DNA of 64,000 nt from the NCBI GenBank assembly GCA_036172245.1, contig JAYWIR010000067.1, positions 372,001 to 436,000 of the forward strand. The letters are read 5' to 3'. The stretch is from Raillietiella orientalis (taxonomy: Eukaryota). This document shows positions 13,011 to 53,606 of the stretch, piece by piece; the first letter of the stretch is position 1, and every line of letters begins with the position of its first letter. A program made the translations under genes and the position numbers. The notes under the pieces were generated by a model. The model saw nothing but the letters and a program-made list of their open reading frames with translations, did no database searches and had not been told where the DNA came from.

Positions 13011-14699
13011 CTCGAAGTCCCGTTAGCAGTGATAAGAGGGACCGGCCATGAGGATGCCTGGAATGGACTGCCGCTTCAGACAGTCGGACAGATGGGAATC
13101 CGGTTTCGGGCATTTCTGGCGTTTCACATCAGCACTCCTGGTTTCATCCGTCCATTTCCAGGATGCACTATGCGGTCGGTGGATTGGATATCCAGCAAGC
13201 GTCTGCAAGCTGACAGTACGGCAGCGCGAGGACCTCCAACCTCGTCACTTGCGTTTTCTGTGTGCACCCACTGATATGGTTTCTGTATATTAATCTTCAC
13301 ATAAATATACATAACATGTATAATAAGAGTTTTCATGTATTTAGTACTCATTATATTAATCCATACAGTAATCTTTATACTGAAATTAGAAAAAGCATAT
13401 CACCAAATATCAATAGCTTATATTTCACCGTTTGGATTCATACTGCCCGAAAGCGCAAGAAACTGAGCTTAAGATGGAATAAATCTGGAGACTTTCCTGA
13501 TAAGCTACATACAACGCGGCTTAATAAACTTACTGATAGTAAACTGCAGTAAATATATGTATCAACCTATATAATAAGCATGTGTATTGGATCTTTCAGG
13601 ATATTGGTCGTTCGGGATTATGATAAGCATCGGACAACTCCCTATGCAACGCACATGGGATCTCATGAAAGGTTCTGGTTGCTAACAGCCATCGAAGTCA
13701 GAATCCGCTAAAGTCTGACACGACCTGTCTGTCCAAGGAACCAATCCTAAAAATAGACGCTCCGATGGCGCACCCACGCTCAGCAGTCGAAACAGAGACA
13801 TTCCCGATGCCTGCACTGGCCACAAGAATGCAGATCTCCAGGAAATTCTGGCGACTTCCGCTCTCGGCGCAGATCTTGGTTGAGCCGGCAAACACTCCAG
13901 TGCGAACACGGAGATCTGGAGTGGAAGCTCCAGGCGAACAACCTCTGAACGTGGTCGAAACCATCCTCAACTCCCGAAAGAACTGGAAACCACAAAGTCG
14001 CCGTTTTCACAAGGGGTGCATGGCAGGACGGATAAAAACATCCATCCTGCCGCTATCCCAGAAGGTCGCTATGAAGGATCAGAGTTCTGGAGAAATGCTC
14101 CCGAATGAGCAAACCGTTGCTAAGAAAGAAAGGAAGAAAAAAGGGAGGTGGGGGTGGGGGAGGAAGCAAACAAACAGAACAGACGCGCTGCCTCTTCGAT
14201 GCCCCAAGACAATCGCGGGATTTTCACCCAGGTTTCCAAGGGAGGGCACCACAAAAAACTCACGAACGCAGCCCTTAAGCAGCAACCTTCAGTCAGCTGA
14301 ATCTTAGAGACAGTTGCTAGACCCCTGATGGGAGCTTCGAGATCGACATCGACTCTCGCCGGCGGAACAAAGGCCCTGGCCAGTGAAACCCGAACAGAAC
14401 CCACTAAACAGAGGGCTACACGTCCGTTGTCCGCAGGCCTCTTCTTTGCGAGTGAAGCTGACCCGGGCCGGCACGCGTGACGTGCAACGGCAGCCACGAC
14501 GCCGAGCGTGAGGAAAGACGTAGGGAGCGAAGATGCGATCCCAGAAACCGACTGGACGACGCTGACGAAAGGAATGCAACTGAGGAAACCACTGTTGAGA
14601 CAGCGAAGAAACTGGAAATACCGCACACAGGTCCGCTAGCCTGCATCCGTTCACCGCTCCACGAGCCCATTTGCTCGGAGACTGTCCAAACGTGCCGAT

Positions 14700-15800
14700 G
14701 AGAGAGCCGATCAGGCGCGTAAAGAGACTCTTTCGGTAGCTGCGCGGTGAGGACCAAATGACAAAGCATCCGCGCAGGGAATGCGGAGCACACAACATCG
14801 AAAAAAGTGGCTTCATACGTGCGCGAGTCCAGCGGCGACAACACACAAATGCCGGTGACCCATCGTGGCAACAGGCCAGGGTGGAGGACAATCTACAGCA
14901 ACGCGGACGCATCGATAGCAGCTAACAAAGGCCCACACACGCAACTACAAAAGGGTCCCAGGAAGACACAAGTCGACCATCAACTAGAAGTCCTGGAACG
15001 TCAGAATTCAACCACCTCCGCGGGCGCCATCCACGAAAATACAGGAGGGGATTCCCATACAGAGGGAGCGCTTGACCAAAGTCCCCTGGTGAACACCAAA
15101 ATGCAACCCAAGGTGACGTGACATACTCCACAGGATGCCTCGCAGCGCGCCCCCAGTGGCGTTCCACAGAAGCGCTCTTTCTCCAGAATCGACGAGACGG
15201 AGCACTTGCCGACCCCACTCTTCCGAAAGCCCCGAGGCCACACGGGCCAGCCCACGCCCATCGGACCACCCCGGAGCTGGGTGTTGGCACCGCTCCGCGG
15301 AGCCTTCTCGGGCGCATACAGCAACACCGTCCACGTAGCGCCACCACCGCCTTCGCTCATGTAACGAGCTGCTAGCCTCCTCAAGACCGACAAGACCACT
15401 CGCGCAAACTCCACAACTCCACAAGACCCTCCGCCAACGGTTTCCTTCCTCGGACGGAAACCCATTCAGCATCACACCCGCCGACACCATCCAAAACCCA
15501 CACGACCGTCCGAGCACCCGGCCATTCCCTTCCAGACTTTCCGTCCGCTCACCACGTAGCGCGCAACGAAACGCGAGTCATCGACACGCTGGTCACCTAA
15601 CGCAGCTTCGCGTTCGTCCGACACCCGCCTCGCCGACGCCCCGAGCGCAGCAACGATCCACCACTTCGCAACCCACCGTGGTGCACCCCAGCGACCACGA
15701 AGCGTAGACACCCTCCGTCATCCTTGGAACGCGCAAACAACGCGGGCCGCCGCCGAGCACACGCCAGCATTCGAACGACTTTCCCCGAGAACGCAGGGAG
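14700..15800 (+). mobile_element. Heavily mutated LINE ORF2 relic inside the GC-skewed domain
   Basis: Ordered degenerate motifs: LPKAPRPHG (~15220; cf. KAPGPDG), SLLKTDK (~15374; cf. SLLNTDYK), a Q-GF-GR-like stretch (~15435) and DFPSA (~15535; cf. DFxKAFD). Many frameshifts. Confidence 0.4.
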
Positions 15801-17774
15801 CAGCACGCCGCGCCTGCGCTGTCCGCGACGCTCCCCAGGGACCTCAGCCAACGGCACGTCAGCTTGCAAGCGGCCTTCCTGCGACCACACTTCCTAGACG
15901 CACTCCAGCCGCAGGCTCACCCGGGCGACGCGAGCGCAGCCGACAATCGGCTCCCCCATTCGCTGCCAGAGGCGAGAGCTCCTCGCCGGCCTCCCTGCCC
16001 TCCCGCAATCCGACAAACGATCACCAAGGAAGCAACTCAGCATTCCGGGAGACGTGCAGACGAACTCACTCACATCGGAGAAGAATTCGGGTGCATCCAG
16101 GAAACACCAGGTGCGCGCCGCCAGCGGAGCGAGCAGCCACGCGCAGCAGCCTGGCAACAGGATACCGGTTGGCTGCGGACGAAGCGCCGAGTACCGGCCC
16201 AAGCCCACACACCGAGGGGCGGCAGGAGGACAGAAAGAGAGACGACCCAAGGAAGCACGGCCAACGGGTAGCGCCACAATCGCCCCGTGGCTGAGCCGCA
16301 CGGGCCACGGCGGCGGGGCGTAGAACAGCGCCCTCGCCAGCTGTTCGCGGCGCACTTCCCCTCCACTGACCCCCGACGCCTACGCTGCGTCACGCGCCTC
16401 CCCGATAAGCCACGCAACCGTCCAAGCACCGGCGGCACCGCTGCCACGGGAGATGCCAGCCGGGCTGCGCCTAACGACTTCCGCAAGGGCTGGAGGCGAG
16501 CGTCTCCGAGAGGGAAAGTCGGCGCGCTTCCAGGCCGAGCGAGCGGCTGCAGGTAAACCCACGTCACCGAGCGCGAGCGCTCGAGCGCCGACCGATCAAT
16601 GCCGCCGGCAGAGTCCACGGAGCATCCCGGAAGAACCTTTGCAGCGCTGGCCACGCCCCGGACGACACGCGCTCGCCCTCGCCGCGGGAGCGCAACACGA
16701 AGAACCGGCGCGTCCGCAACGCTTCGTCCAGAGCGGACAGCTGCAAGAGAGAGGCGGTCAGCCGCCGCCCGCTCACCCTTCCGGGGCCGAACCTTCGCCC
16801 CTTATTACGCACGCAATCATCGCTCAAGCAGCGCGTGCGATACCGGACCACTCCGCATCAACTCAGGATGACCACGGCAGGAATCCACGCGGAACTGCAC
16901 GCCTCCCCCCCCCCCCGACACCAAGGCGAAGCCCACCTTCTCCGGCGTCCACCTGCGGACACGCCTACTCCTTCCCTCCGACCACCCGGATCAGCACGGA
17001 CGTCGACCTCTCCCGACCCGACGACCGCCAACACAGTCAGCGCACGGCCCTTCGGTCGACAGCGCGACCCTCGCGCTTCGCGGACAAACGACCTCCGGCT
17101 CGACGAACCCGCAAAGCCACCGCCCGCAGGAGCAGGCACACAGCAGAGCAGAACGAACAAAACCGAGGCGACCCAAGCAAACCGGGTCAAGCCCTCTCGC
17201 CCTCACCTCATACCGCACCGAACGCGTCCTCCCTGACGGAGAGCCAACGCCTGCAGCCGCACCACCTCAGACCTCACGACCTGACCATCACCAGGCACGG
17301 CCGTCGATGGTGACCCCTCCAACTTCCGCGAACGCGACCGAACCCTCCGCACCCGAGCACGCGACACGCCCCACCAACCGGGTCAGCCAGCCATCCCATC
17401 CCCCTTGTTGCCAGTAGCCAGCATCCACGGCGGCCGTCTCATCAGAGAGACCGCGAGCACGCAGCAGCCCGCACTCTGACTCCCTTCCTCCGCCCCCGAC
17501 GGCAGCTGCTCCCACGCCCTCCAGCTACGCCTACACCCACACAAGGCCGCACGCGGTTCCGTACACGTCTGCCCCACGCCATCCAACCCTAACGCAACGA
17601 CCACCACGAATGAAAGCAACAAAGTGAGCGGAAAGGTCACGCCACGACGGATCTTCTGCATTTGTCCCTGCATCCACACCTTGGGCGCCGCTCCGAGCTC
17701 CGCTTCCTTCCTCCGAGCACAAGACGCACGCCGCCAAGCGCGACAGCACGACTCCGCTCCGGCAGCGCCGCCGA

Positions 17775-20700
17775 TTACAGGATCCAGTAGTTGTACGACG
17801 GAGGACAAGGCAGCCTCTGGTCCAGAGTGTGGAACATCCGCGAGTACAAGTTCCGTTCCTTCTTCGAACCCAGCTCGTTGTGCATGACCGCCTGAGGCCA
17901 CACCCGTCCACCACCGCACCCATCCCAACACCTACCAGACAGTACGCCACGTCCCTCATGCGGTACAGAGCCGGGATCTTCCCGAACAGCCTGTACGCCG
18001 CCGTCAAGTGATCCACCGCCTCCTTGGCGACGCACGCGCTCCCGCCAGACTCCGCATCCTCGTCCTCCTTCACCTCTTCCGCCTCCTCCTTTGGCTCGCC
18101 GCCGCAACTCGCACCGACACACCGACTGCGCTCCATGTTCAGCCGCGCCATCTTGCAGCGCGCCAGCACGAAGTGGAAACGAGCCTCGTCGTACGCGCCA
18201 AAGTGCGTCAGCACACGGAAACGGCAGTCCTCCGCCGTCCGAAGTGCCTCCGACGCCATGCCCAGCTTCAACTGATACGCCCTCCGTCCGCGACGACCGC
18301 AACGCCGACAACGACCACGCACTCACCTGCACCAACGCCAAGTGCAACAGGCACGTCGTCTGCAGCTGCTGCAGGTGGTGTTTCCGGGAAATCTCCAGCG
18401 CCTCCGACAAGCACGTCAGCGCCGACTGCTGCTGGCCCACCAGACGGTGGCACTGGCCCTCCACCAGCAGGCGCAGAGCCTGCTTCGGCGCCCTCAGCTC
18501 GTCCTGCTCGTCCTCGCGCGACGTCATCCCGCGCAGCTCCAGCGACAGCTCGTGCACCCGCGACAACGAGCCCTCGTACGTCGAAAGCTCCGCCTGCCTG
18601 CCGCCACGCACCCTCCCACACACCCACGACGACAAACCACCCCCCACTCACCAGTACTTGCTCTCCCACGCGTCCAGCACACGCAGAGCGCGCGCGTGCG
18701 ACCCGCACTCCTCCCACGAGCCCTGCACCAGCGCACGGAACACGCCGATCTTCTCCTCGCACAACCTCCAGTGACGGCTGTACCTGCTCCCGCAGTACGA
18801 CTTGTCCTTCAGGAAGCCCAGCACCTTCGCAGACTCGCAGAAGTGGCCCTGCAAGCGACACCGCATCCCGCGCCCCGCCCGCCACACGCAACCACCCACC
18901 TCCGTCGCCAGGGCGTACGCCACGCTGCAGCCGCACAGGTACGCCGACTCGCTCGAACGGAACTCCCCCTTCTCCCAGTCGTAGTCCAGGTACAGCACCA
19001 GCTGCGACAGCGACACCGCCATCCGCAGGTTCCCGTAGAAGCACCAGAACACGTGCTTCAGGTGCACGCACGAGAACATCAGGTCCAGCATCGAGTGCTG
19101 GAAGTTCAGCAGGTCGCACTCCGAAAGCAGCTGAGCCAGCAAGCAAGGCGGCCAGGAGGGGGAAGACGCACGTCAGCAACGCCGAAGACACCAGCGACGC
19201 AACCATCTCACCTTCATCACCATGCAAGGTTCCGCGTCCGTGCCCAGGAACATCTTCGCGTAGAACAGCACGCCCGATGACGCCAGCTGCGGCAGGCCCA
19301 GCTTGCGGCACTTCACCACCGAACTCTCCACCAGGCCCAGCTGCGGACGGCACGCCCGCGTCGCTCGCGCTCCGCGACACACCGCGCACGCCCACCTTGT
19401 CGCCGCACGGCAGCCGGTACATCAGGGAAAGCGCGTGCTGTAGCGCCACGTTGTCTCCACCCTCCTGAGCCAGCACCACCGCTTCCTTCAGGGCGTTCCG
19501 GGACATCTCGCTGCACGCAGGGGATCAGGATGATCAACCACCCACACCATGCAGCACCGACCCCTTCCCCCAAACCGTGCCCCAAATCCCCGCGCCGGCC
19601 CGCAGCTGCCGTCACGCAAACGGCCGCAGAAGCTACGACTGCGGGCTTCTCTTGCACCGAAACTCCACCGCCACCCTCATCGACCCACCCGGTCCAACTC
19701 AAGCAAGCCCTCACTACCACCACCAACAGCAGCAACCGCGCGAGCAAAAAGAAAACTTTCTCGACTCCACCCACCCACTCTCCACAGCTACGCTTCCACG
19801 CCCAGGGGCGCAGCACTCCTCCCGGACGATGCACGCCTACCCCCCTTTCGCCCCGACCCACGTTCCTCGCCCGCGCCCACGCACGCCGATCCACACCTGC
19901 ACCGGCTGCCCCGAGCCCACCTCACCGACCGCCACACACCACTCACTGGGATCCGCAGTCCGCGTAGAAGGCCGCCAGGTTCAGAGACGCCAGCCGCAGA
20001 GACTGAAACGCGTCCTCGGCAGCCGCGCCTCTGGAGCCGCCGGGAGGCGCATCCCCGGCCAGCGACGACTGCAGTCTGTCGAAACTCAAGTGCACCTGAT
20101 GCAGCGCGCCCAGGAACTCCTTCGTCTTGGCGCAGTTCACGTGGCTCACAACGTGCTGCAACCGACCGCCGTCAACACCCGTAGCGCCGCCGCCACGCGA
20201 CCGCTCACCGTGTAGTGAGGAAGGTGGTTCGTCGCCAGCAGCGCCTTCAGGTTGTGCTCCAGCACGTCCGGGGGCAGCGCCGTGCCCTCGTCCCGGTCCA
20301 GGCGCTCCGCCTGGCTAGCCAGGAACAGCTCCACCTGTTTCTTCGACGACAGCTTCATGTGCTGCGCCCTCCGGCTGCCTCACGCGCGACCCTCGCCGCA
20401 TCAGCCTCCCCTCCTCCTCCGACCAGCCCTCTCACCTAGCGCTCCCGGAGCACGCGCCGCCACACAACGCCGCGTCCGACGTCGACGTCCCGCCCACACA
20501 CGACGACTCGCACGCGGCCGGAAGCGCCCTCTGCGCCTCCAGCACCTCGTAGTACCGCTTCACCGCCCGATGCAGTCCCAGGATCGCCGAGAAGCTCAGC
20601 TTGTCGAACACCAGGTACACGCCGCGCAGGAACAGCCCTGACCACACTCTCCCCCTCTTACACCCGCCGGCACCGCCTTACCTATGATGCTGCTCTTGTT

Positions 20701-21477
20701 CAGCACGTATCTCTCCGACAATAGGTTCTCGATCTCCTGCATCAAACCGTGCACCTTTAGCGCGTCCGACGACAGCAGCCTCAGGTTCTGCTCGAACCCC
20801 TCCATCACCACGGACGGAGGCTCGCTCTTCGAGATCAGCGACACCAGCGCGTGCAGGTCCATGTGGCACCCCTGCAAGCAAAGCCACGCGCCACCTTCCT
20901 TGCATACCGGACGAGCACCAGCCACCTCCCCGAACCTCACTCACCTGGATCAGCTGAAGAGCCAGCAGGTCAAAGTTCCTCCTCGACTGCGCCGTGAACA
21001 GGAAAGAGTCCCCCAGGAACGGGTTGCTCAGCACTGCAAATGCACGAATCAGAACGACGTCTTCCAGTTGCCGACGACGACCGGCCACCAACCAGCCGCG
21101 CCCTCACAGCTCGCGCCCCCAGCACCCAACCGCCCGCCGCCCTCGCACACCGCGTCCAGCAAACGCGGCGCCGCAAAACCGCGCGCCCGCACCAGCAAAC
21201 GCTCCTCGCTTCCCCTTCCAGGCGGGCTCTCCGCACAGGGCCGGCCGCCCCGCAACGAGCGCGTCCGACCGGCAGCGCGCAACCACCGCCGCCGCCGCCC
21301 CGCTCGTCCACCCGACCACGCCGCGGGCGCGACACCAAAGCCGCAAACAAGTGCCTCCTTACCTTTCGCTCTCGCCGACACGAACTCTTTCAGGTACAGC
21401 GCCACGCAAATCTTAAACGGCGTGATGTTCTCGTACACCTTGCTCCGGTCCGCTTCCCAAGAAAACGCGTCCACCAT
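17775..21477 (-). CDS. ANAPC5: Anaphase-promoting complex subunit 5, 13 exons, 788 aa
   Basis: Exons 21477-21363, 21033-20945, 20871-20682, 20637-20436, 20374-20209, 20155-19947, 19510-19396, 19340-19212, 19130-18900, 18848-18652, 18597-18327, 18271-17936, 17891-17775. All GT-AG, phases consistent. APC5-like motifs: ITPFKICV, KSSIIGLFLR...FDKLSFS, SKKQVELFLASQA, ASLNLAA, ALKEAVVLAQEGGDNVALQHAL, ERNLYSRMF. Confidence 0.9.
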
Positions 21478-21619
21478 CCTCTCTCCGCCTGCACCTGTCA
21501 GGGCATCTTGCCGTCCTGCAACGGCAACCGGTCAACGTTCCACCCGAGACGGGCGCGAGGCCGCTTCCTCCCACTCGCAACACGCACCAACACCCCATCG
21601 CACCCAACCAAAACAACTT

Positions 21620-21625
21620 TTTATT
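21620..21625 (-). terminator. Candidate polyadenylation signal of DCAF1
   Basis: AATAAA on the minus strand followed by a GT-rich downstream element (GTTGTTTTGGTTGGGTG); the only AATAAA between the DCAF1 stop and the APC5 ATG. Confidence 0.65.
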
Positions 21626-21941
21626 CGTGTCCACGGAGGGAGGGAGGGAGGGAGGGATCCGGGCGAGTCACTTTGCGAGGGGGGGTCTCGCCTGCCCTTC
21701 CTTTCTTTCCTTTTCTTTTTTTTGCATTGTTCCTCTTGCGCCGCCTGTCCTTCTCCCTCCCCCCTCTCCCCCCCCTTTTTTTTCTTCTTCCTCCTCTGGG
21801 TGGGCTTTCTGGGTCCTGACCCTCGCTCTGCTCTTCTCGCTTCGGCTCTCTCGATGCAATCTCCACCTGCTGCTGCTCCTCGTCCTCCTCCTCTTCATCA
21901 TCATCATCATGTCCCCCCCCCCCCAACGAACACAGCACCGT

Positions 21942-23584
21942 TCACAGGTTCTCGCTGTCCACCTCGCTGTCGCTGACGCTCTCCGCGAAGGACAGATCGC
22001 CCATGGAATCGCTGTCGCTGCTCCCCTCGGCGTTCCCGCCGTCCTCGGCGTTCGGCTCGTCGTCCCCGCTCTCCGGTTCCAGAAGGTCGATGATCTCGTC
22101 CGCCAGGTCGTCCACCGTGTTCTCGTTGTCCGTGATGGACAGGTCCGAACCGTCCGAGTCGCCCAGGTCCTCCTCCTCCTCCTCTTCCTGCTCCACCTCG
22201 TCTTCCATGTCGCGGCAACGGCCCACCTCGTACACCCGCACCCAGCTCTCGTCCACCACGCCCTCGTAGTAGTCCGAGTTCTCCACGATGGCGATCTGCG
22301 TGTCCGTGCTGTTCACCGCCAGGTCGTAGATGCACTTCTTCACGTCGATCGTCGCGATGTTCGCGTAGTCCTGCGCGTCGAACGTGCGGAAGTTGCACTC
22401 CAGGTTCGAGCCCTGGCCCTCCTCCTCCACGCTGAACCCGTAGAAGATGTCCCCCTGCGAGTTGAACCGGATCACCGACTGGTCGATGCTCGACACCGTG
22501 TGCAGCAGGTGGAACGTGCGGATGTCCCACACCTCCGTGTTGCTGATGATCTCCAGCCCGTTCGGATGGAACACGCCGTTGAACGTCTGGTTCAGCTTGT
22601 CGAACTTGTGGATCACCGTGCCGCTGCACACGTCGAACAAAACACCGTCGCACAGGATCAGCTCGTCCGTCGGGCTGAACGTGCTCTTGTTCCGCGCGTA
22701 CTGGTTCGAGCACTGCGGGCTCAGGCTCACCACCACCTGGCCCGTATGGATGTCGTACACCGTCGCCGTGTAAGTCTTCGTCGCCACCACCTTGTCCTGA
22801 GACAGCTTAGAGAACTCCACGTACTCCTCGTCCTCGAACGCCAGCTTCATGTCGAAAAAGTCGCCCAGGGTCCACAGCGCCGACAGCGGGTTCCGAGACG
22901 AGTGCGGACGGATCACCGAAGACGTCAGCAGCAGCGAACCGTCACGGCTAGGAGACAGGTTCGTCAACGCCGAGTCGTGGCACTGGTAATTCGCCTCTTC
23001 CACGCCCGTCGCCGCGTTGAACAGCTTCATGTCGCCGCTGCACGTCCCCGCCATGATGAACTGCTCGCACGACGAGAAGCAGCACGTCGTGAAGAAGATG
23101 TCATCCTCGGAAGACCGGTACAGCATCAGCGGACGGAAACGGGAGTGCACCAGCTTTCTCGTCAGCTTCTCGCCCTCGGGGCCGCCGTGCTTCGGGACCA
23201 GCATACGGCTAGAGATACGCGCCGTCAGGTTGCAAGGGGCCACGTTCTTCGACTTGGGGTCGGGGCACTGGTGCGGAACCAGCAGGTCGAACTGCGGGCA
23301 CGTCACCATAGGGTTCTTGCACAGAGTGTGCTGGTTCATCAGGTACTCCGTTATGATGTTGTCCAGAGTCACCACCGTCGCTTCCGTCGCACCGAACACT
23401 TGAGACCCGTACTTCAGCACGGGACCCTGCGCCTCCCGACCGCTGATCTGCTTCTGCACCACGCGCGCGCTGGACAAAGCATCCTTCGCGCGCGCGCCCC
23501 CGGCTGTCCCCGCACGCGGCGTCAGGCTGCTGCTGCTGCTGCTGCCGCACGCCGCGTTGCACGACGAGCGCCCGTTGCTCCCGC

Positions 23585-23619
<35 letters not shown>

Positions 23620-26507
23620 AATGCTGCTGCTGCTGCTCCCCCCCCTCCTCCTCCAACTCCAACTCCTACTCCTCCCGCTGCTGCCGCCGAGACTGCAGAC
23701 ACCCATGACGACGACGACGACGAAGACGACGGAGGAGCAGCAGGAGGAAGAGGCGTCCAATACGACGACGAACCAGAGGACGACGAAGACGAAGACGACA
23801 CTGCCGTCGCCGTCCCAGCAGGGTTGATCGTCAGCGTGCGCGGCGTGCACGCAAGAGAGCACTGCGGCAACCTCGCAGCACCGCACGCACCCGGACGTCG
23901 AGGAAGCACGCCAGCCGACGACGACGACAACGAAGAAGAACACCCGACCGACACGGCGCCCAACGACGACGACGACAACGAAGAGCTGAAACAACGACCC
24001 GGCGAATACGCGCTCGCCGTGGACTTGCACAAACCCTGCAGGCTCGCCTCCCGCTGCAGCGTCACCGCCGAATCCTTGTACCCCTTGCTCAGCAGGTGCG
24101 ACGCAATCAGCTGCAGCAGCTCCTTCTCGTTGTACGTGATGCGCGTCTGCGCCACCACGTCCGCCTTGTGGATCGTCGACAGCGACACCTCGAACTCCCC
24201 GCCGCTCTTCTTCTTCTTCCCGGAGATCAGCTCCAGCAGCTCCAGAGCGAACTTGCAGAACTTCACGTGCTCCGCCCTCTTCTCCTGCAGGATCGGCTCC
24301 CGCATCAGGATCTGCAGCTGGCCCGTCGTGAACAGAGGCAGCTTCCCGATGATCTGCCGCACCGTCTCGCACCGCGCAAGACCCACCAGAGCGCGGCACG
24401 CCAGGCAGCGTAGCGCGTCCGCGTCCGTGATCGGCGTCTTCACCGTCAGCAGCTTCAGCAGCACCATGATCCCGTTGTTCGAACGCGCGCAGTTCCAGAT
24501 CTTCAGCAGCAGCTCGTCCGCCGAACGCCACATACCGTGCTTACGGATCACGCAACCCGCCGTCGTGAAGTGACCGATCACACCCTTCGAGATCTTCGAC
24601 GGCGCGCACACGCACATGATCAGCACGTTCAGCGCCGACTTCTGCACGTCCGCGTCCGCCACCACCTCCCCCACAGCCGCCCACAGCACGATGTTCAGCC
24701 CCACCGTAGAACTGTCGTCCGGAAGCTCCACCTTCTCGCACAGCTGCTCCTGCACGGACGGCATCACCGCGCACACGCACAGCACGTCCAGCGCGCTGCG
24801 CACCGTCTCCGCCCGACCGGAGTAGTTCCAGTCGTACGCCATCCCGATGATGCGCAGCAGCAGGCTCGTGCAGTTCAGACGAAGGAAAGACTCCACCGGC
24901 TGCCAACGCTTCTTGTGCGGAAGCAGCACCTGCACCAGGTGGATGTTCTCCTGCACGCCCTCCGGCGTGTACGTCATCGCCTTGTAGTTCGGCGTGCTCG
25001 GCTGCGGAGAGCCGCCCTGGTCCCTCACGTGCAGCCGCTGAAGCTGCTCCGACAGGATCATCAGGTGAGCCTCGAAGTAACGCTTCACCGCCACGCACAC
25101 GTGACGCACCGTCTGACGAGACGCGAACTCCTCGTCCTCGCTGATGAAGTCGTTCGGCTCGTCGCTGGACAGGATCAGCAGCGTGCTGACCACGTTGTAC
25201 AGCTTCCGAAGACCGTCCTGCTGGTCGAAGATCTCCAGGATCAAACGGAAACGGAACGACAGACCGAAGAACATCGTCGAGTGGCAGCGACCCGACTCGT
25301 GAGAGCACTCCAGCAGCCACAGCGCGTACTTCACCAGCTCGCCCACCACGTAGCGGGGAAGCACGCAGATGCGCTCCATCGCTTCCTCGCTGCACGCCAG
25401 GTAATACAGGCACATCGACACGCCCGTCGCCGCGATGCTCGGACGAGGAACCTCCAGCAGACGCTGCACACCGTTCACACCGATGAACTCCAGGCAAAAC
25501 TTCTTGTGGCACAGCAGCGCAGCCAGGTACTTCAGAGCCTCGAACGCCACGCGCACGTCGCGGTTCAGCTTCAGGTTGATGTACTTCAGGATCAGACCCA
25601 GCGCGTCGTACTCGAACACGTTGCCCAACAGCTCCTGGTATTCGCCCATCGGCGTCAGGTAGCGCAGCAGAAGGATCTGCTTCGTCGCCAGGGTCAGCGG
25701 GTGCACCTGGTACACCCCGATCACGTAGCTCTCCAGGTCCGCCCACGAAGAGTTGCTGCACTCGTTCGCACACGGAGCCAACTCTTCGCTCCTCTTGTAA
25801 CCGTTCGGCAGCAACGACTCCGAAAAACACTTCGACTGCCCCAACGACGACGACGACGACACCCCTGCCTCCGACGACGACGCCACCACCACCTCCGACG
25901 ACCACGCCGGACCTTCCTCGTCCGACCGCAGGAACTGAGCCTGAGCTTCGCGAATCCTCCGCAGCATCTGAGGCACCAGCAGAGCGTTCTGCTCGCGAAA
26001 GTTCGCAGCGATGTCTTGCACTTCCATCGCAGACGACAAAATACCCGCCGCGTAACTCGACAGCGGGTCCGACGTCCTCTCCGCCCAGTGGAACAGCTTC
26101 GTAATCAACCCTTCCGATTCCTTGAACACCACAGACGTTTCCAGACCCGGCATGATGTCCAGCAGCAGACGGCACGAACTCGTGTTGATCTCGCGGATCT
26201 CCTCGTGAGACAGGCGACACCACCCGCTGTCACGCATGTAGTCGTTCACCAGCTTGTTCATCAAGTTGTCCTTCTTGAACAGAGTCTTCAGCAGCAAGCC
26301 CAGAGTGCACTTCGGGTCTGCACGAGAAGGGTGCCTGTCGTCGAAAGGATCCGGATCCATCTTCAAGTAATTCTCCGTTTCCTGCTCCACCAACTCCGCC
26401 AACCGATTCAGCGTCTCCACGGGATTGAAGCTCGCGTCCCGATGCTGCTCTTCCCATTCTTTCAGAATCTCGCTCACCACGTCCGTCACCAGATCTGGTT
26501 CCTCCAT
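21942..26507 (-). CDS. DCAF1: DDB1- and CUL4-associated factor 1 (VprBP/Mahjong), single coding exon, 1521 aa
   Basis: Uninterrupted ORF with DPDPFDDRHP, ARM-like region (YLTPMGEYQE, ALLCHKKF), LisH (ELLQLIASHLLSKGYKDSAVTLQREA), HTLCKNPMVTCPQF, WD40 region (HKFDKLN...[22 protein letters not shown]) and an acidic tail. Acceptor-like site GGTTTCGTTTGGCCAG ending at 26528, 20 nt before the ATG, implies a spliced 5' leader. Confidence 0.97.
23587..23637. repeat. (GCT)11-AAT-(GCT)5 trinucleotide repeat encoding poly-Ala within DCAF1
   Basis: Directly visible; flanked by (GAC)n runs that encode poly-Ser (TCG) on the coding strand. Confidence 0.9.
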
Positions 26508-26862
26508 CGCTACACCCGATCGGATTCCTGGCCAAACGAAACCACAACCCCCCGTTAATCAAAGCAGCGAACCAACAAACGCAAGCGCCGCGTCCAGACC
26601 GGGAACGCACTCCGCCCGCGCCCCTCCCCAACCGACCACGCTCCCCTTCCCACTCCCTCCCTCCCTACGCTTCCCAACGCGCTCCCCACGAACACCTCAC
26701 TCGACACGAGCGGGCTCGCACACGACCTGCACCCCGACCGCCCAGCCAACTGCCCCTATGAAAACCCCATCCTCTACCCGCACGAAGAGGGCGCCTGCGT
26801 GTAGCAACCACCTACCTACCTCTCCGCTTCCCGTGCTCACCTCGTGTCCCCCACACACCTAT

Positions 26863-26882
26863 CTACCTACCTACCTACCTAC
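26863..26882. repeat. (CTAC)5 microsatellite
   Basis: Directly visible. Confidence 0.85.
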
Positions 26883-28161
26883 CTTCGGAAGAGCACTACT
26901 TTCGCTGGCACGTCCGGTGCACTCGGACAGGACCGCTTCCTGCATGCCTTCCCACAGTCAGTCCGACCCGCAATCTTCCTCCCCGTCGCCAAGGAGACGC
27001 ACCCTTTCTTTTCCCGACACGTCAAGTCCCGACCAAGCCCAACTGCAAACACCGGTCCCCCACGTTCGCGCGCAAAACGCCGCCGCCGCCACCACCACCG
27101 AGAAGTCCGCACAACGACTCGGCAACCAACCTCAAACCGAATCGAAACTCCAAACGAGGTCTCCGACGACGCGTCCGAGCCGCGCACCTTTCACCAACCA
27201 CCGACGGCAACCTTCGAGGGCTCCTTGGGCACCTGCTGCCTCCTTCATACTTCGCAAACAAACTTCCTTGCCCAGTCTGCGAAAAAGCGTCCTCAACAAC
27301 GCAAGCCACCACACCCACAGCAGGCAAATCCTTCCGCCTTCCATCCTGGCAGCCAGCCACCTCCGACCGCTCCATCCGAACGCACGTGCGCGCAGCCTTC
27401 GCACCCCATCGCCAGCTTGCGTCCCACCGCCTCGAGCAATCGCAGTGAACCCCAGCTCCCGAACAACATAAACAAGCCCCCCCCCCCCCCCTCTTCCGCG
27501 CATTCATACAGTCGCAACCAAGTTCGACTAGTTTGCTCCAACTACCGAAAGGCGTACGGTGGACAGCCCCCGGCAGCGGCTCGCATGGCCAACGTGTTGC
27601 GCCCACCCCGAACTGGCCCCTCATCCTTCAGGAGCCTCTCCGCAAGCACGAGAACGTCCACGTGCCCTCAACACACGCGTCGCGCCCTTTCCAGAGGCTC
27701 CCACGAGTGCTCCGTTTCCAACAACACGCAGCCAAAGCCACGCGCGGGCGCACAACCAATCTTCCGGAAACATCGCAGCCATCCGCATCCAACACACGAG
27801 GCGGGAAAAAAGCTTACTGTCAGCGCTACCTTTCCGCACTTGACCACCTCCATCCTACGCTCAAACGGTCATCTCTCCGTCCGTCACCAAACCTCGACCC
27901 ATGCCAAGTCATACGAGCACAGAGATCGCTCCCTTCGTCACCATTTCATCATCATATGTTCCCAGGCAAGTCACCTACTCGCCCCACCAACCTTCTTCCC
28001 TTTCCCCCCTTTACGAAACGGATGCCCACCCGTGAATGCAACCACGCCACGCACGTCTCCAAATTCCATTCTCCGATTCCCTCTTCAACCCATAGCTGCA
28101 CGCAGTTCACGTCGCTTCGCCGCTCGCCACTCTTGAACCAGAAAAAAATTACAGGCGAGAG

Positions 28162-28164
<3 letters not shown>

Positions 28165-28209
<45 letters not shown>
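28165..28209. repeat. (AC)22 microsatellite
   Basis: Directly visible. Confidence 0.95.
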
Positions 28210-28210
<1 letters not shown>

Positions 28211-31200
28211 TCAAGGGGAACACTGCCCGGCTGGAAAACCGTCCCAAATGTGCAGCACACACCTTCAAGAAACTCCACCCCTACCAAGAACACCATCTCT
28301 GATCTCTCGATGCACAAGCTCTCTCTGTATATCTTCTGTCAAAAAAACACACATTCAACCCCTGCCACACAATCGAACAAACACCTGTTTCCACACAACA
28401 GAGCACACAGCAATCTTGTGTACGCAGCCAGTCCAGACGTCCACCTTCCAGTGATTGCAAATCCCCTGCAAACTTGGCCCCAATTCTTTCACAAACGTGC
28501 AATCTCTTCCAGCCACCTTTGGATTTTCCTTCACTTCTTGTGCCACTCCCTTCTACAGCATTCTCCACACACACATCACCCACACACTCTGCTCCACGAA
28601 TTAGGTGGTTCAAAACGGGAGCTCATCTGCAAGCTCACAAGCTTTGCCAAGCATGCATCTTCAACCGTAAGTGCTCTGCCACCAATTTCACGAAAAAGCC
28701 AAACAGCAACATCTTCTCTGATCAACACCTTCCCGGCTCAAGCCTTTCCGTTCCACCTTCCTACAATGCAAAACCTCTCTGTCAAACAGCAAGCTGGGGC
28801 GCAACATGCACACAGCATGGTGTTGACCTTTCAAACTCAGCACCAACAACCTCTACTTGGGACTCTGGACGCAGAAGTGCAAAATTCCAGAACCAAGTCT
28901 GGTCCTTCCATTGGATCCTCAATTTCCCACCCCATGCAGCACACCACCAAAAGCCGAACCAACAAGGAGTACAAACAATCCTTGCATCCATGCAAAAAAG
29001 AAAAAAAAAAAAACCAACACCATTTCCTCATGTTGTTTGCTCCAAGAAAAACAAAAGACATTGCATCCCTATGCAAGGAAATGGGCTCTGCAAGTTTTGT
29101 GTGCATGGCCAAAATGCTTACTGCAAAAACAAACACCAAACTTTCCACCGTGCATGCTGCAATGCATTCCATTGCTCAGCTGCACATTTCCACAATTGCA
29201 AGCAGTCGATTCACCCAACCTCCAGCACCAACAACCCCCTCGCACTTCAATCCAAAATAAAACTCAAAAAACAACCATTTCTCTTCTGCTGCATCACGCA
29301 TGCACAGCATTCCCTTGCCTAAACACAACTGATCCTCTCTGCTTGCACTAGGCTCTGGCTTCCAAACACATTCTGCTTCCAGCAAAATGCCCTCTTTCCT
29401 TACTTCCTCACCCAGTACTTTCCTCTGAGCAAGCCCACGTTGCAATTTGCACCCAAGACCGACTACTGAAAAAGAAAAAACAGCTCCCTCTGCACACCTT
29501 CCGAGGCAATTTCGTTCTTCAAAGTGCTCCCAAGTCCCAACTAGACTGCACACACTTCCTACTCCTCCTGATTTGCTTCAAAAAGTGTCCCTACTCAAGC
29601 TTGGTGGTCCAGGCCTTGCAAGCTTCCAATCTTGCACGGTTCCCTGCATTACCTCCCACCAAAAACATGCAACCTCCACCTTATCCTGTTCTTCTCTTTA
29701 CATGCCTCCAGGCAGCCTTCCTTCTCCATTGCATGAGCCACACGGCAAACTCATCCCAAGAAACTGGTTGGCATCTCAATCCAATCCCCAATCTTCACAC
29801 CTCCACAACAAAAGCAATGAAAAACAACCAAAACTGGCAAACAACCAGCACTCCTTTCTTGCTCCACGTGCACATACATTCCCATACTGCCACTCTCTAC
29901 AAACTTTCTCAGCTGGCAACCGCTGAAAAAAGCATCCCAAACTCCTTTCCTTTCTACCCTCTCTGCAACAGCAGCGTTCTCGCATGCACTTTACCACATC
30001 CACACTTCCAAACCAACATCCAATTTGCAAAGTCCGTCCCAAAAACTCCTCACGGCTGCATGGCCACCGTTCCCCTAACACAAACTGCAGTCTTGGCAAA
30101 ACAGCAATGCAGCCCCACCATGCAAGCAAATCCACAGAGCCAACAACGCCACACCGACCAGCGTTTCTCCTTTCTCCCTCTCGACCCACCCCCCACACCG
30201 CTTGGACCACCCCTGCACAAAACGAGCGCGCAAACTCCAAGACGGCACGACGGACGTGCTGCAAAACGTTTCAGCCCCCAAACAAACAACCGAACGAGGC
30301 GAAACACAATTCACCTGGCGAAAACGCAACTTTTACAGCAACTTTTACATAGCAGTATTTTCTGAAACATGAATCCATACCTGGGGACCCAAGCTGCACA
30401 AATAACACATTTTTATCCTCGCACCAACTTCATCCACAATCCGCAGGACGAACCTATTCCACCTTTTCCTTTCGTAAGGGGGGGTCTCATTACCGAACGA
30501 ACCCAAAATCCACAATCACTGTGTGCCTCCGCTTACACGAAAGTGGGATTCGTCTCCGAATTTCGCAAGACGATGCTCGGCCGGTTGCTCAGCACATGGC
30601 ATCATTGGTGGCACTCATCGTCGGCAGTTCAGTCAGCCACAGGCAGACGCACGTGTTCGCCACAGCGCAAAATCCAACCTACGCCACAATACTACCAACA
30701 CCGCCGCTCCGCGACCATTTAAGCTGCGCCGAACACGGCCGTTTCGAAAGGCGCTGCACGTCCGCCGACGGCTGCGGGGGTGCCACACTACTTTTGCTTT
30801 CTTGCTGGGGTGCACTCCCTTTTCACCGGACATCGCTCCCCACACGCACGAAGCAAGCAAAAAGGCAACCGCTCTCTCTCCCGTTCGGCACGCGCCTCCC
30901 GCATGGCGCATCGCCATCGCAACCTTTCTTTTTCTCCACTGCTCCGGTGCGAGCAAACAGCACCTACGATTCCCATGCATGAGTTTGCGCCAGTGCACCC
31001 CACCTTCCATTCAGGAAAAGCAGGCTGCCATTCACCCGCTGCCTCACTCACATGCAAACCCTTTCCCGCGTTGACGCCAGCGATTTCGCACGCCCACCAC
31101 CGTGCAGCCCACGAGACGGGAGAATGCACCTTCTACTTGCACTCATGTCGCCATTGCCTGCCCGACACCTACAACTTGGCAAGCCTTCGTCGGCCATTCG

Positions 31201-31849
31201 TCCATGCTTCTGCGGGACGCAGCATGAGGCTTCGCTCAAACAAGCACGACGTCCATTCCGGGCAGTCATGTTCCCAACAGCAAAAGAACTCCTCCTTCCA
31301 CCGCTCCCAGCATCTTTTCGCGTTGCGCGCCGCGGATTTTCTCATCTCTGCAGTGCCTTTTGCCTGACGTCAGTCCCAAGAGAATCTTTGCATTCCCAAT
31401 CTTCGAATTCCTCCCGTACCACGCGCGTCCGCTATCCGGAATGTTTTCTCGCTTTCCTGCCCCTTCTCTTCCTTGTTCCACCTTCTCGTACGCAAACGTA
31501 GTGTCGTACGAAGCAGTCTCTCCTTCGGTTTTTTCGAAACGCAGTTGCCCATTTCTCTCGGCCCGAGGCTTACTTTCCGCGGAGCAATCTCTTTTTCGCG
31601 TGCCGAACTCGCAAAGTCGAACAGCAGGCGGCACTCATAGCAAACGCTTGGTGACCGACTGCGGGTTACTTTCCCGGCTTCCGAACGGATGCATGCATCA
31701 AGCTTCGGAGGGTGGGTTCTTCTTCTGGTTTGTCTGCGGAAAGCAAGCGCAACCAATGCGATTCTCGCTCTGTAACGTGCTTCTTCCTGATGCACTCGTG
31801 TGCTGCCTGCCACCCCCACCCCCACCCTGTCGCTGCTGCGCTGGCTTTC

Positions 31850-32755
31850 CTAAAGGTAGATCTGGACACCGATGTTGCGGCAAGGTGGGAGGTTACAGTT
31901 ACCTCTCCGGGAAGGAGAACTAGCAAGGAGAGTGGAAGACGGGTCAGCTAACAGACGCTGCGACCCCGAGTACGCCTCCCCATGGACTTGTGCGCTGAGG
32001 CGCGCTGCTCCATGTTCCGACTGAGCATCTCAAGTGGCCCCCGGTGCTCATGAACACCTCCACCCTCGCCTTAAAATGGCAGGAGTCGGCTCTACTGTTG
32101 CAGCACTTTGGACTCCGCTGCAACGCCTGCCGACACCACTGGACCTGAGGAGCGGTTAACCCCAATTGCTTTAGGTGTGGCGAACCGGAGTCCCTCCCCC
32201 ACCTCCTTGTGGATTCGGTTGCCCTTCGGCCCCTTTGGCTACGCTTTGCCGCGGCCATAGGAATCCCCTGCGGCAACCCCAGGGACGCAGGGAAAGCCCT
32301 CTTCGTTTCCGACGCCCTTCGACCTGTGGCCTCGTCAGCAGCCCTGTGCTGCCTTCGCGGGATCGTCGCCGCTTGGAGCAAGGCAGCGGGAGGACCTCGC
32401 GATAAGGGTGCCATCCAGAGCACCGCCGAATTTTTGGAAAGGACGACGCGATGGCCCCACCTGGATCCACAAATGCAGACAGAGCTTGCCGCCATCCTGC
32501 GAGGGATGCAGCGGCCCCAGCAGCAACAGTGATGCCTTCCCGCACCCTCCCACCTTTTCTTTTCCTTTTGATTCGTTTTTTTTCTTTCCTTGTCCCTCCC
32601 CTCCCCCTGCTGCCGTGGTGGACCGTACCGGTCTGCGAACCGGTGACCCGGCAGGCTCTGTATTGTTTCTCCGGGCGTGGCTGGATCACTGGGCCAGCCA
32701 CAGCGCGTGTTCGAGTTTGTTTGAAATAAACGCCCCGGAGACCCGGGTGAAAATC
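31850..32755 (+). mobile_element. 5'-truncated LINE with intact 3' end
   Basis: KWQESALLLQHFGL...NCFRCGEPESLPHLL (ORF2 zinc-finger region), ORF2 stop at 32532, T-rich UTR, structured module 32610-32654, then AATAAA-CGCCCCGGAGACCCGGGTGAAAATC ending at 32755. Confidence 0.85.
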
Positions 32756-37891: not shown

Positions 37892-38480
37892 GATTTTGAT
37901 TTTCACCCGGGTGAACCGGGGCGTTTATTTTGTACAAACTTATTACAAAGGAAATTGTGGTTGAATCGGGGGTCCCGCCACGCCCAATTTAGAGGACACC
38001 TGCCGGGTGCCCGGGTCGCAGACCGGCGCGGTCCACCACGGCAGCAGAGGGGAGAGAGCAAACAAACAAACAAAAAGGAAACAAAAAGAAGAAATATATA
38101 CACTATGGGGGGTTTCGGGGAGGGATCGCTGTCCGCTGGTCTTCTCTAGGATGTGGACAAGGCCTTGCTGGATATTCCTGTCCAGGTGGGGACGTCTCTT
38201 TGCCATGCTGATGAATTGGACGGCGAAATGGAACGCATCCATGTCGCTGGATCCTCCCGTTGCTTTATTCCAGTTTGAGACCATCCCGCGTAGGCAGCAC
38301 AAGGCTGCAAGGGAGGCCGCTGGCCGAGGGGCGCCGCGAACGAAGAAGGGTTTGAGAGCGTCCCTGGAGTTGCCTCCGGGGTCTACCAGAGCCGCGGCAA
38401 TGCGTTTCCAGAAGGCCGGAGGGCAACATAGTCCAATAACAGGTGAGGTGGGGATTCCCGTACTTCGCATCTGACACAGC
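37892..38480 (-). mobile_element. 5'-truncated LINE with intact 3' end
   Basis: ORF2 C-terminus (FWKRIAAAL...AALCCLRGMVSNWNKATGG...RPHLD), structured module 38044-38000, terminal AATAAACGCCCCGGTTCACCCGGGTGAAAATCAAAATC. Confidence 0.85.

Positions 38481-50718: not shown

Positions 50719-53606
<2,888 letters not shown>

What the first reader, a model, noticed from the sequence alone, without database searches (positions are those of the whole stretch)
14400..31800. ~17 kb strand-skewed, GC-rich domain spanning DCAF1, APC5 and their non-coding flanks
Seen: composition here differs sharply from the AT-rich UBE2F, E(z) and RMC1 loci. Hand counts on +: 17041-17100 gives C26 G17 A9 T8; 29821-29880 gives A22 C20 T12 G6. 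The sense (-) strand is therefore G(+T)-rich and TA dinucleotides are scarce. The bias affects codon third positions (TCG/GCG/ACG/GTG), introns, about 5 kb upstream of DCAF1 and about 3 kb downstream of APC5, including a probable LINE relic, so codon selection alone does not explain it. Established: transcription-associated asymmetry gives G+T excess on the sense strand, but usually weakly. Inference: a localized strand-specific A>G mutational or conversion process tied to one long minus-strand transcription unit, or a translocated block from a different compartment.
Basis: partly seen in the sequence, partly recalled or inferred. Interest (0 to 1): 0.75.

Follow-up and report, generated by a model that had tools for sequence, protein, structure and literature searches.

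The report
Strand-skewed GC island over two genes
A 17.6-kb stretch of an insect-like genome carrying the DCAF1 and APC5 genes is GC-rich and has far more G and T than C and A on the gene-sense strand, a strand bias several times stronger than the published transcription-linked biases I compared it with, and its cause is not settled.

Summary
Segmentation puts the strand skew at 13701-31300 (G+T on the minus strand 0.602 against 0.498 outside) and the GC rise at 13701-35500 (0.604 against 0.429). Both genes lie on the minus strand: DCAF1 has one intronless ORF, and APC5 has 13 exons and 12 GT..AG introns. Sense-strand 4-fold sites are 69-73% G and 2-4% A. APC5 introns are 50% G and the flanks 36-45% G. 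CpG is not depleted, whereas neighbouring AT-rich gene bodies have CpG o/e 0.16-0.34. E(z) and RMC1 lie on the same strand in the same window and lack the bias.

Two-fold sites are equally GC-driven for purines (0.91-0.92) and pyrimidines (0.90-0.92). The asymmetry sits where transversions are free (G>>C, T>A).

My best reading (about 0.4) is a strong strand-symmetric AT-to-GC drive plus loss of C and A from the sense strand by transversion, tied to minus-strand transcription of an unmethylated island. Codon or mRNA selection is a serious rival, because exons are more skewed than introns. I found no positive sign of a chimeric assembly, though the edges could not be checked with reads. No LINE relic was found inside the skewed part. 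Polarised substitution spectra, germline RNA and read coverage could not be obtained.

The parts
13701..31300 (-). Strand-skewed segment: G+T on the minus strand is .602, against .498 outside it.
   Evidence: Likelihood segmentation; 500-bp profile.
13701..35500 (.). GC-rich segment (.604 against .429). Its last 4.2 kb (31301-35500) is not skewed.
21942..26507 (-). DCAF1 (mahjong/VprBP) coding sequence in a single ORF without introns. ATG at 26507, stop TGA at 21944-21942, 1521 codons. Sense-strand 4-fold sites: A .044, C .104, G .686, T .166. ENC 29.9.
   Evidence: PDB DCAF1, E=0. No RNA joints lie inside it.
17775..21477 (-). APC5 (ANAPC5): 13 exons, 788 codons, 12 GT..AG introns of 44-436 nt. 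ATG at 21477, stop TAA at 17777-17775. Sense-strand 4-fold sites: A .022, C .141, G .733, T .104. Introns: A .087, C .206, G .495, T .212. ENC 29.6.
   Evidence: PDB APC5, E=7e-8. Seven introns are confirmed by spliced RNA contigs of a relative.
21478..21941 (-). Spacer between the DCAF1 stop and the APC5 start. It is purine-rich (A .27, G .40). It holds the only minus-strand AATAAA found between 12000 and 33000 (first base 21625) and a ttgcag acceptor about 38 nt before the APC5 ATG.
13701..17774 (-). Non-coding stretch downstream of APC5. Over 14401-17777 the sense strand is A .11-.13, G .36-.40 and T .22-.25. It has no Pfam-recognisable ORF and no minus-strand AATAAA or ATTAAA.
26508..31300 (-). 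Non-coding stretch upstream of DCAF1, with the strongest G>C skew (+.30 to +.43). It includes a sub-part at 28001-30000 with GC .48 and, over 28501-30000, CpG o/e .29-.36.
31999..32755 (.). Copy of a dispersed repeat family. Other copies lie at 2862-3767, 37898-38511 and 59505-59624, the last beside a zf-RVT ORF. This copy lies in the GC-rich but unskewed part.

Best explanation
The domain is a regional, strand-asymmetric substitution regime laid over a co-oriented pair of housekeeping genes (DCAF1 then APC5, both on the minus strand) in a stretch that has escaped CpG depletion. Two forces seem to be superimposed. (1) A strong, strand-symmetric AT-to-GC drive, which could be GC-biased gene conversion or an equivalent mutation bias. 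It pushes both transition classes to about 91% GC. (2) A strand-specific loss of C and A from the sense (non-template) strand through changes that such a drive does not see: C to G and A to T. This leaves G>>C and T>A. The sense-strand orientation, the G-rich non-template strand and the lack of CpG depletion fit a long unmethylated, R-loop-prone transcription unit whose displaced strand is preferentially damaged. The composition is shown. The link to transcription, R-loops, methylation and conversion is inferred.
For: The skew covers every sequence class on the sense strand. G:C is 6.6 and 5.2 at 4-fold sites, 2.4 in APC5 introns and 1.5-2.5 in the flanks. T:A is 3.8-4.7 at 4-fold sites, 2.4 in introns and 1.3-2.0 in the flanks. 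Two-fold sites show equal GC drive on both strands: C/(C+T) is .92 and .90, and G/(G+A) is .91 and .92. At 4-fold sites and in introns T>=C (for example CTC 0 against CTT 12, and GCC 6 against GCT 17), which fits C being drained to G. RNA contigs of a 90-99% identical relative differ from the window by C in the window and G in the relative at 28 places, against 7 the other way (+ strand). This means the window carries sense-strand G where the relative has C (binomial p 5e-4). On the sense strand, G<>T differences (45) and G<>C differences (35) are as common as the transitions (40 and 43). Three of 4 other gene stretches in the window show the same sign of sense-strand G>C, whichever strand they lie on: the UBE2F locus (+ strand) +.10, RMC1 (- strand) +.12 and E(z) (- strand) +.05, with the TXN/NDK gene at 0. 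CpG o/e is 1.0-1.3 in the core 15001-28000, against .16-.34 in the UBE2F-locus bins 8001-11000 and the RMC1 bins 54001-58000. G runs of 3 or more number 21.1 per kb on the minus strand and 6.2 on the plus strand inside the domain, against 7.4 and 7.9 outside. All 4 minus-strand G4 motifs of the window lie inside the domain. A repeat copy at the GC-rich edge has S where its 38-kb sister copy has W at 99 sites, against 64 the other way (p .008). This shows that GC enrichment also acts on non-genic sequence.
Against: Exonic 4-fold sites are much more skewed than introns or flanks (G .69-.73 against .50 and .36-.45). Codon use is close to one codon per amino acid (ENC about 30). A purely regional mutation regime predicts equality across classes, so some codon- or mRNA-level force may be added. 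The equal GC drive at two-fold sites could also be codon selection for NNC that happens to match. E(z) and RMC1 lie on the same strand 20-30 kb away and have no comparable bias, so transcription alone is not sufficient. Nothing here says why this unit differs. In Drosophila the intronic coding-strand skew has the opposite G/C sign (C>G by 1.2%, or 4.2% in the most highly expressed genes, section read), so there is no insect precedent for this sign at this size. No transcript extent, R-loop, methylation or recombination data exist for this organism. The differences from the relative are not polarised and come from contigs of a metatranscriptome. GARP amino acids are not raised at aligned sites. 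They fall by .040 in DCAF1, much as in the control E(z), where they fall by .037.
Confidence: 0.4

Rival explanations
1. Selection acts on the mature mRNA or on codon choice (G-ending codons in 4-fold boxes, C-ending codons in 2-fold boxes, G/U-rich UTRs). The introns and near flanks follow through a weaker regional GC effect.
For: The 4-fold sites are the most extreme class: G is .69-.73 there, against .50 in introns. One codon dominates for nearly every amino acid: GTG 102 of 113, ACG 68 of 76, CTG 132 of 166, and NNC 330 of 360 at 2-fold Y sites in DCAF1. ENC is 29.9 and 29.6. The bias is even along both genes. If the flanks are UTRs, they are part of the mRNA.
Against: The introns are spliced out, yet they have G:C 2.4 and T:A 2.4. 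About 9 kb of flank is skewed as well. DCAF1 and APC5 are not classic highly expressed genes, and E(z) and RMC1 in the same window show no such codon preference. Gly and Arg boxes do not prefer G. Frequent G<>C and G<>T differences from a close relative are not expected at strongly selected sites.
Confidence: 0.2
2. One reading: a strand-specific A>G (sense-strand adenine) mutation or conversion process tied to transcription is the main cause.
For: Sense-strand A is the most depleted base (.09-.17 in 500-bp bins) and G is the most enriched. [quoted passage not shown]
Against: At two-fold sites G/(G+A) is .91-.92 and C/(C+T) is .90-.92, so transitions are symmetric. At 753 conserved DCAF1 columns, A>G-type replacements (20) do not exceed G>A-type replacements (23). 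A>G alone cannot give G:C of 5-6.6 at 4-fold sites together with T>=C.
Confidence: 0.1
3. The composition is a relic. The block evolved in another compartment, such as a high-recombination chromosome end or a small chromosome, and was moved here together with its genes and flanks.
For: The difference from its neighbours is sharp. Both edges lie in non-genic DNA. A repeat-rich stretch sits at the upper edge.
Against: It does not explain the strand skew; it only moves the question elsewhere. The lower edge is gradual over about 1.5 kb. The relative's RNA shows the same composition, and the window is if anything more G-skewed than the relative (28 against 7). That suggests the process is still running.
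Confidence: 0.1
4. The asymmetry comes from replication-fork direction: the region is replicated in one direction from a fixed origin near one edge.
For: The G+T-rich strand pattern is the one known for leading strands (recalled). An unmethylated GC-rich island at 31.3-35.5 kb could be an origin.
Against: There is no mirror-image skew on the far side of either edge. G+T on the + strand is only .45-.59 in the 250-bp bins of 31501-36000, and 11-13.7 kb is flat. The size is far above the published eukaryotic skews I read. Exons are more skewed than introns.
Confidence: 0.07
5. The window is an assembly chimera: the skewed 17.6 kb comes from another organism.
For: The composition, the CpG state and the codon use all change together.
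Against: It would need two false joins, and the window has no N. The lower edge is gradual. E(z) outside the domain has the same tiny introns as APC5 inside it. DCAF1 and E(z) are about equally distant from the same 15 insect species.52-.57 and .56-.62 identity. A repeat family links 32 kb to 3, 38 and 59.5 kb. Spliced RNA of a close relative confirms the GC-rich genes.
Confidence: 0.05

Closest known systems
Transcription-associated strand asymmetry (G+T excess on the coding strand of mammalian introns; weak skews in Drosophila introns)
   Same: The skew is oriented with the sense strand and is present in introns and near flanks. The sign (G>C, T>A) is the mammalian one (passages read).
   Different: The size is far larger. 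Here the G-C skew is +.41 in introns and +.68 to +.74 at 4-fold sites. In mammals it is below .06 along transcripts and above .1 only at 5' ends. In Drosophila it is 1.2% overall, and 4.2% in the top expression class, with the opposite G/C sign. Here the transitions look symmetric and the asymmetry sits in transversion-accessible sites.
Local runaway-GC regions ascribed to GC-biased gene conversion (gerbil ParaHox region and other gene clusters)
   Same: A sharply bounded cluster of conserved genes has extreme GC3 (.85-.89) beside ordinary neighbours, and non-coding DNA is affected too (abstract read).
   Different: Conversion bias is strand-symmetric and cannot give G:C of 5-6.6. The gerbil regions are large (clusters are seen at the megabase scale), and related abstracts report radical alteration of conserved genes there (search listing). 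Here the domain is 17.6 kb and aligned residues show no rise in GARP amino acids. In butterflies GC3 averages .40-.53 and B at 4-fold sites is .46 (passages read).
GC-skewed, R-loop-forming unmethylated CpG-island promoters, and immunoglobulin switch or hypermutation regions
   Same: The non-template strand is G-rich (36-50% G in non-coding parts), CpG is not depleted while neighbouring gene bodies are depleted, and C and A are lost from the non-template strand, as described for hypermutation (C>T/G/A and A>T, passages read).
   Different: The domain is 17.6 kb long and spans two whole genes, not about 1 kb at a promoter (recalled). It has no switch-type tandem repeats. The AID enzyme is a vertebrate feature (recalled). 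No R-loop or methylation data exist here.

Membership tests
Transcription-associated strand asymmetry | The sign of the skew follows the sense strand of genes on either strand. | tested here: met
   Sense-strand G-C skew by gene: DCAF1/APC5 (- strand) strongly positive, RMC1 (-) +.12, E(z) (-) +.05, UBE2F locus (+) +.10, TXN/NDK (+) 0.00. There are only 5 units, and one of them is flat.
Transcription-associated strand asymmetry | The skew is confined to the transcribed interval. | not testable with these tools
   No sequencing run of the organism itself was served. Contigs of a relative cannot show transcript ends.
Transcription-associated strand asymmetry | [quoted passage not shown] | tested here: not met
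   Composition proxy only: G/(G+A) is .91 and .92, and C/(C+T) is .92 and .90, at two-fold sites. A>G-type replacements number 20 and G>A-type 23 at conserved columns. No polarised DNA spectrum was available.
Transcription-associated strand asymmetry | The size is a few percent. | tested here: not met
   +.41 in introns and +.17 to +.43 in flanks. The literature values are at most about .06-.1 in mammals and .01-.04 in Drosophila.
GC-biased gene conversion island | AT-to-GC bias is seen at synonymous and non-coding sites alike. | tested here: met
   GC3 is .85 and .89, introns .70, flanks .62-.67. This compares with .43 for the window outside 13001-36000.
GC-biased gene conversion island | The bias is strand-symmetric. 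| tested here: not met
   G:C is 5.2-6.6 and T:A is 3.8-4.7 at 4-fold sites.
GC-biased gene conversion island | The recombination rate is high. | not testable with these tools
   No map or population data are available.
R-loop / GC-skew CpG island | CpG is not depleted, GC is high, and the non-template strand is G-rich. | tested here: met
   CpG o/e is 1.0-1.3 in 15001-28000, GC is .60-.68, and minus-strand G runs number 21.1 per kb against 6.2 on the plus strand.
R-loop / GC-skew CpG island | RNA:DNA hybrids form and the DNA is unmethylated. | not testable with these tools
   This needs DRIP-type mapping and methylation sequencing.
Replication skew domain | The sign of the skew inverts across an origin. 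| tested here: not met
   No mirrored skew is seen beyond 31300 or below 13701.
Switch-region-like repeat | Tandem G-rich repeat units are present. | tested here: not met
   Only 3 short arrays lie in 13000-36000, and there is no dominant k-mer.

The most novel reading that the evidence does not exclude
An insect-like germline has a hypermutation-like process without AID. In a long, unmethylated, R-loop-prone transcription unit, the displaced sense strand loses C (to G) and A (to T and G). A strong AT-to-GC fixation bias hides the transition part of this. Together they drive two essential genes to about 70% G at free sites and nearly one codon per amino acid, within 20-30 kb of ordinary genes on the same strand.
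Probability: 0.2. Interest if true: 0.8.

Novelty: new variant of a known kind. Interest (0 to 1): 0.6.

Why it matters
Strand skews of nuclear genes are normally a few percent and are used as faint footprints of germline transcription and replication. A 17.6-kb island with G:C of 5-6.6 at free sites, beside ordinary genes on the same strand, would give an unusually strong natural signal. With it, mutation on the non-template strand, GC-biased fixation, codon selection and gene-body methylation could be told apart. It is also a practical warning. Such islands distort codon-usage, dN/dS and phylogenetic analyses of the genes inside them, and they look like contamination to compositional filters.

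Tried and rejected
- No whole genome is held for this window, so I could not test whether such islands recur.
- Earlier notes of the scan held nothing by place, sequence or words.
- A 'longer' homologue search with an APC5 C-terminal exon found nothing. APC5 orthologues were therefore not compared.
- The run search found only one run, a metatranscriptome with a word share of .06.
- When that run was laid, its contigs belonged to a 90-99% identical relative and covered 17502-26839 plus one bin at 29508-30174. The stretches without cover say nothing about transcription.
- I did not test whether that run also holds relatives of E(z), RMC1 or UBE2F.
- The metagenome scan gave one distant, AT-rich (GC .33-.43), intron-rich DCAF1 contig, L001, which is useless for polarising changes.
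- The loose end before the APC5 ATG looked like a possible spliced leader. It is only the relative's diverged 5' UTR.
- Polarising amino-acid changes at 753 conserved DCAF1 columns showed no A>G excess.
- DCAF1 is richer in amino acids with G/T-rich codons than all 116 orthologues.
- Against 15 matched species, however, the control E(z) shows most of the same shift (+.024 against +.035). This is largely a lineage effect, not evidence for the domain.
- The E(z) exon search gave mostly Lepidoptera among the named hits at 31-56% identity, with salamander, hemichordate and lancelet hits at 42-48%. It therefore has no power to place the organism.
- I first thought the lower edge coincided with the 3' end of UBE2F. 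The last recognisable UBE2F exon is at 9566-9679, 4 kb away, so that idea is dropped.
- The k-mer enrichment search found only (GT)n and (GGTA)n traces.
- Papers. I read section 5 of PMC5786239. I read passages of PMC2927911 and PMC10462419. I read abstracts and outlines of PMC10978632 and PMC7403616. All others were seen only in search listings.
- Those five searches turned up no report of a nuclear insect domain like this one. That is not proof that none exists.
Full report
**What is there**

The window is eukaryotic and insect-like. The large minus-strand ORF 21942-26558 is DCAF1 (mahjong/VprBP). It matches human DCAF1 chains in the PDB at E=0. It matches arthropod orthologues at only 47-63% identity, so no close relative is in the protein collection.

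Immediately downstream on the same strand lies APC5. It has a Pfam ANAPC5 hit and matches human APC5 at E=7e-8. I modelled it as 13 exons and 788 codons, with 12 GT..AG introns of 44-436 nt. Spliced RNA contigs confirm seven of the introns.

Other genes in the window:
- UBE2F on the + strand, with exons at 7853-8107, 9359-9529 and 9566-9679.
- A thioredoxin/NDK gene on the + strand, between 40.7 and 49.1 kb.
- E(z) at 50762-53597 and RMC1 at about 53736-57382, both on the minus strand.

E(z) and RMC1 therefore share the orientation of DCAF1 and APC5.

Likelihood segmentation places the strand skew at 13701-31300. G+T on the minus strand is .602 inside and .498 outside. It places the GC rise at 13701-35500 (.604 against .429). 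Of the 17 one-kb bins inside, 14 exceed the most skewed of the 42 bins outside.

TpA o/e is .35 inside against .64 outside, and CpG o/e is 1.09 against .79. In the AT-rich UBE2F-locus and RMC1 bins, CpG o/e falls to .16-.34. The domain is therefore an island without CpG depletion among CpG-depleted gene bodies.

The domain is not built from tandem repeats or from one motif.

**Composition by sequence class (sense strand)**

| Class | A | C | G | T |
|---|---|---|---|---|
| DCAF1 4-fold sites (n=796) | .044 | .104 | .686 | .166 |
| APC5 4-fold sites (n=404) | .022 | .141 | .733 | .104 |
| APC5 introns | .087 | .206 | .495 | .212 |
| 3' flank 16001-17777 | .109 | .266 | .404 | .221 |
| 5' flank 26511-27500 | .146 | .179 | .449 | .225 |
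| E(z) 4-fold sites, same strand (n=85) | .26 | .29 | .26 | .19 |
| RMC1 4-fold sites, same strand (n=89) | .27 | .20 | .18 | .35 |

The bias is even along both genes, and ENC is 29.9 and 29.6.

**What the flanks are**

None of the 108 ORFs of 75 aa or more in 13214-17589 and 26233-35285 hits Pfam at E<=0.01. The skewed flanks have no blastn or tblastx match to the rest of the window.

A dispersed repeat does have a copy at 31999-32755, in the GC-rich but unskewed part. Its relatives lie at 2862-3767, 37898-38511 and 59505-59624, the last beside a zf-RVT ORF. That copy has G or C where its 38-kb sister has A or T at 99 sites, against 64 the other way (p .008). GC enrichment near the domain therefore also acts on non-genic DNA.

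**Independent support, and the chimera question**

Only one public run was offered, a metatranscriptome with a small share of the query words. Twenty-four of its contigs were laid. One is at least 99% identical, 10 are 95-99% and 13 are 90-95%. They belong to a relative, and they carry both GC-rich genes with APC5 correctly spliced. The GC-rich coding sequence is therefore real.

Against a chimera:
- Two false joins would be needed, and the window has no N.
- The lower edge is gradual over about 1.5 kb.
- E(z) has the same tiny introns as APC5.
- DCAF1 and E(z) are about equally distant from the same 15 insect species.
- The repeat family ties 32 kb to other parts of the window.

Read coverage at the edges could not be checked.

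A sense-strand A>G process predicts that purine transitions are more GC-driven than pyrimidine transitions. They are not. At two-fold sites G/(G+A) is .91 and .92, and C/(C+T) is .92 and .90.

The asymmetry appears only where transversions are allowed. In 4-fold boxes NNG >> NNT >= NNC >> NNA: GTG 102 of 113, ACG 68 of 76, CTC 0 against CTT 12, GCC 6 against GCT 17. In introns C/(C+T) is .49 and G/(G+A) is .85. Gly and Arg boxes are exceptions.

At 753 conserved DCAF1 columns, A>G-type replacements (20) do not exceed G>A-type replacements (23).

The window differs from the relative by C in the window and G in the relative at 28 places, against 7 the other way on the + strand. The window thus has sense-strand G where the relative has C (p 5e-4). 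On the sense strand, G<>T (45) and G<>C (35) differences are as frequent as the transitions (40 and 43), while C<>A (7) and A<>T (4) are rare. These differences are not polarised, and they come from metatranscriptome contigs.

**Best reading (inference)**

A strong, strand-symmetric AT-to-GC drive saturates both transition classes. The strand-specific part is then visible in the change classes that such a drive does not act on: sense-strand C to G and A to T. The result is G>>C and T>A.

This is the pattern described for damage to the non-template strand in hypermutation (passages read). It fits a G-rich non-template strand: G runs number 21.1 per kb on the minus strand against 6.2 on the plus strand, and all 4 minus-strand G4 motifs of the window lie inside the domain.

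Other gene stretches in the window show a modest skew of the same sign relative to their own sense strand: the UBE2F locus +.10, RMC1 +.12, E(z) +.05 and TXN/NDK 0. The domain may therefore be the extreme end of a transcription-linked skew in this genome.

**What this reading does not explain**

Exons are far more skewed than introns and flanks, and codon use is close to one codon per amino acid. That points to an added codon- or mRNA-level force, or to a process centred on exons.

Nothing in the window says why this unit differs from E(z) and RMC1.

The stretch 28001-30000 is a CpG-depleted, lower-GC insert that is nonetheless skewed.

At the protein level the domain has little specific effect. 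DCAF1 exceeds all 116 orthologues in amino acids with G/T-rich codons, but E(z) shows most of the same shift against matched species (+.024 against +.035). GARP amino acids are not raised.

**Comparison with what is known**

- In Drosophila introns the coding-strand skew is C>G by 1.2% and T>A by .8%. It rises to 4.2% and 2.3% in the genes most highly expressed in the ovary.
- In mammals the G-C skew is below .06 along transcripts and above .1 only at 5' ends.
- The skew here is several-fold to more than 30-fold larger. It has the mammalian sign, not the Drosophila sign.
- Local runaway-GC gene clusters ascribed to biased gene conversion are known in gerbils (abstract). Biased conversion is thought to shape insect GC, most strongly in Lepidoptera (abstract). 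In butterflies GC3 averages .40-.53 and B is .46. Such conversion is strand-symmetric.

I therefore class this as a new variant of known kinds, not as a member of any one of them. My five literature searches turned up no report of such a nuclear insect domain. That is not proof that none exists.

**Verdict**

The finding is real, strong and only partly explained. The mechanism I favour has a confidence of about 0.4. It can be tested with polarised spectra, population data, germline RNA, R-loop and methylation maps, and a genome-wide scan, none of which was available here.

Noticed in passing
window 21942-26507 (-); L001: The DCAF1 coding sequence has no intron over 1521 codons. In contrast, a distant marine-metagenome DCAF1 contig (L001) is split into exons of about 30 aa, and neighbouring APC5 keeps 12 introns. 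This suggests wholesale intron loss in this gene.
   Followed up: partly
window 19212 and about 21515 (-): One RNA contig of the relative joins the donor end of APC5 exon 8 to the sequence just after the ttgcag acceptor that precedes APC5 exon 1. This could be a back-splice (circular RNA), a duplication in the relative or an assembly artefact. It also implies that APC5 exon 1 has an upstream acceptor about 105 nt after the DCAF1 AATAAA, so the two genes may share transcripts.
   Followed up: partly
window 8001-11000, 54001-58000, 28501-30000: CpG o/e is only .16-.36 in these AT-rich stretches, against 1.0-1.3 in the core of the domain (15001-28000). The pattern is bimodal, as expected for heavy germline methylation of some gene bodies next to an unmethylated island.
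   Followed up: partly
window 17775 down to 12000 (-): No AATAAA or ATTAAA occurs on the minus strand downstream of the APC5 stop codon. The only minus-strand AATAAA between 12000 and 33000 follows DCAF1 (first base 21625). The depletion of A may have removed canonical poly(A) signals.
   Followed up: no
window 23300-23900 (-), DCAF1 residues about 861-1070: This linker is low-complexity and made of 51% Ser, Ala and Gly. It includes a 17-copy trinucleotide array at 23587-23637. Ser, Gly and Val contents of the protein exceed those of nearly all 116 orthologues.
   Followed up: partly
window 2862-3767, 31999-32755, 37898-38511, 59505-59624; 1118-1381; 59093-59764: There is a dispersed repeat family whose copies are 67-75% identical. 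There are also fragments of non-LTR retrotransposon proteins: an endonuclease fragment at 1118-1381 and a zf-RVT fragment at 59093-59764. These elements are more GC-rich (.5-.6) than the AT-rich host DNA around them.
   Followed up: partly
window 40765-40974 and 48520-49080 (+): Thioredoxin and nucleoside-diphosphate-kinase domains lie on the + strand about 8 kb apart. This is probably one TXNDC3/NME8-like gene. It shows no sense-strand G-C skew.
   Followed up: no
window 28165-28209; 26860-26900 (-): An (AC)22 microsatellite and a short (GGTA)n run lie in the upstream flank.
   Followed up: no
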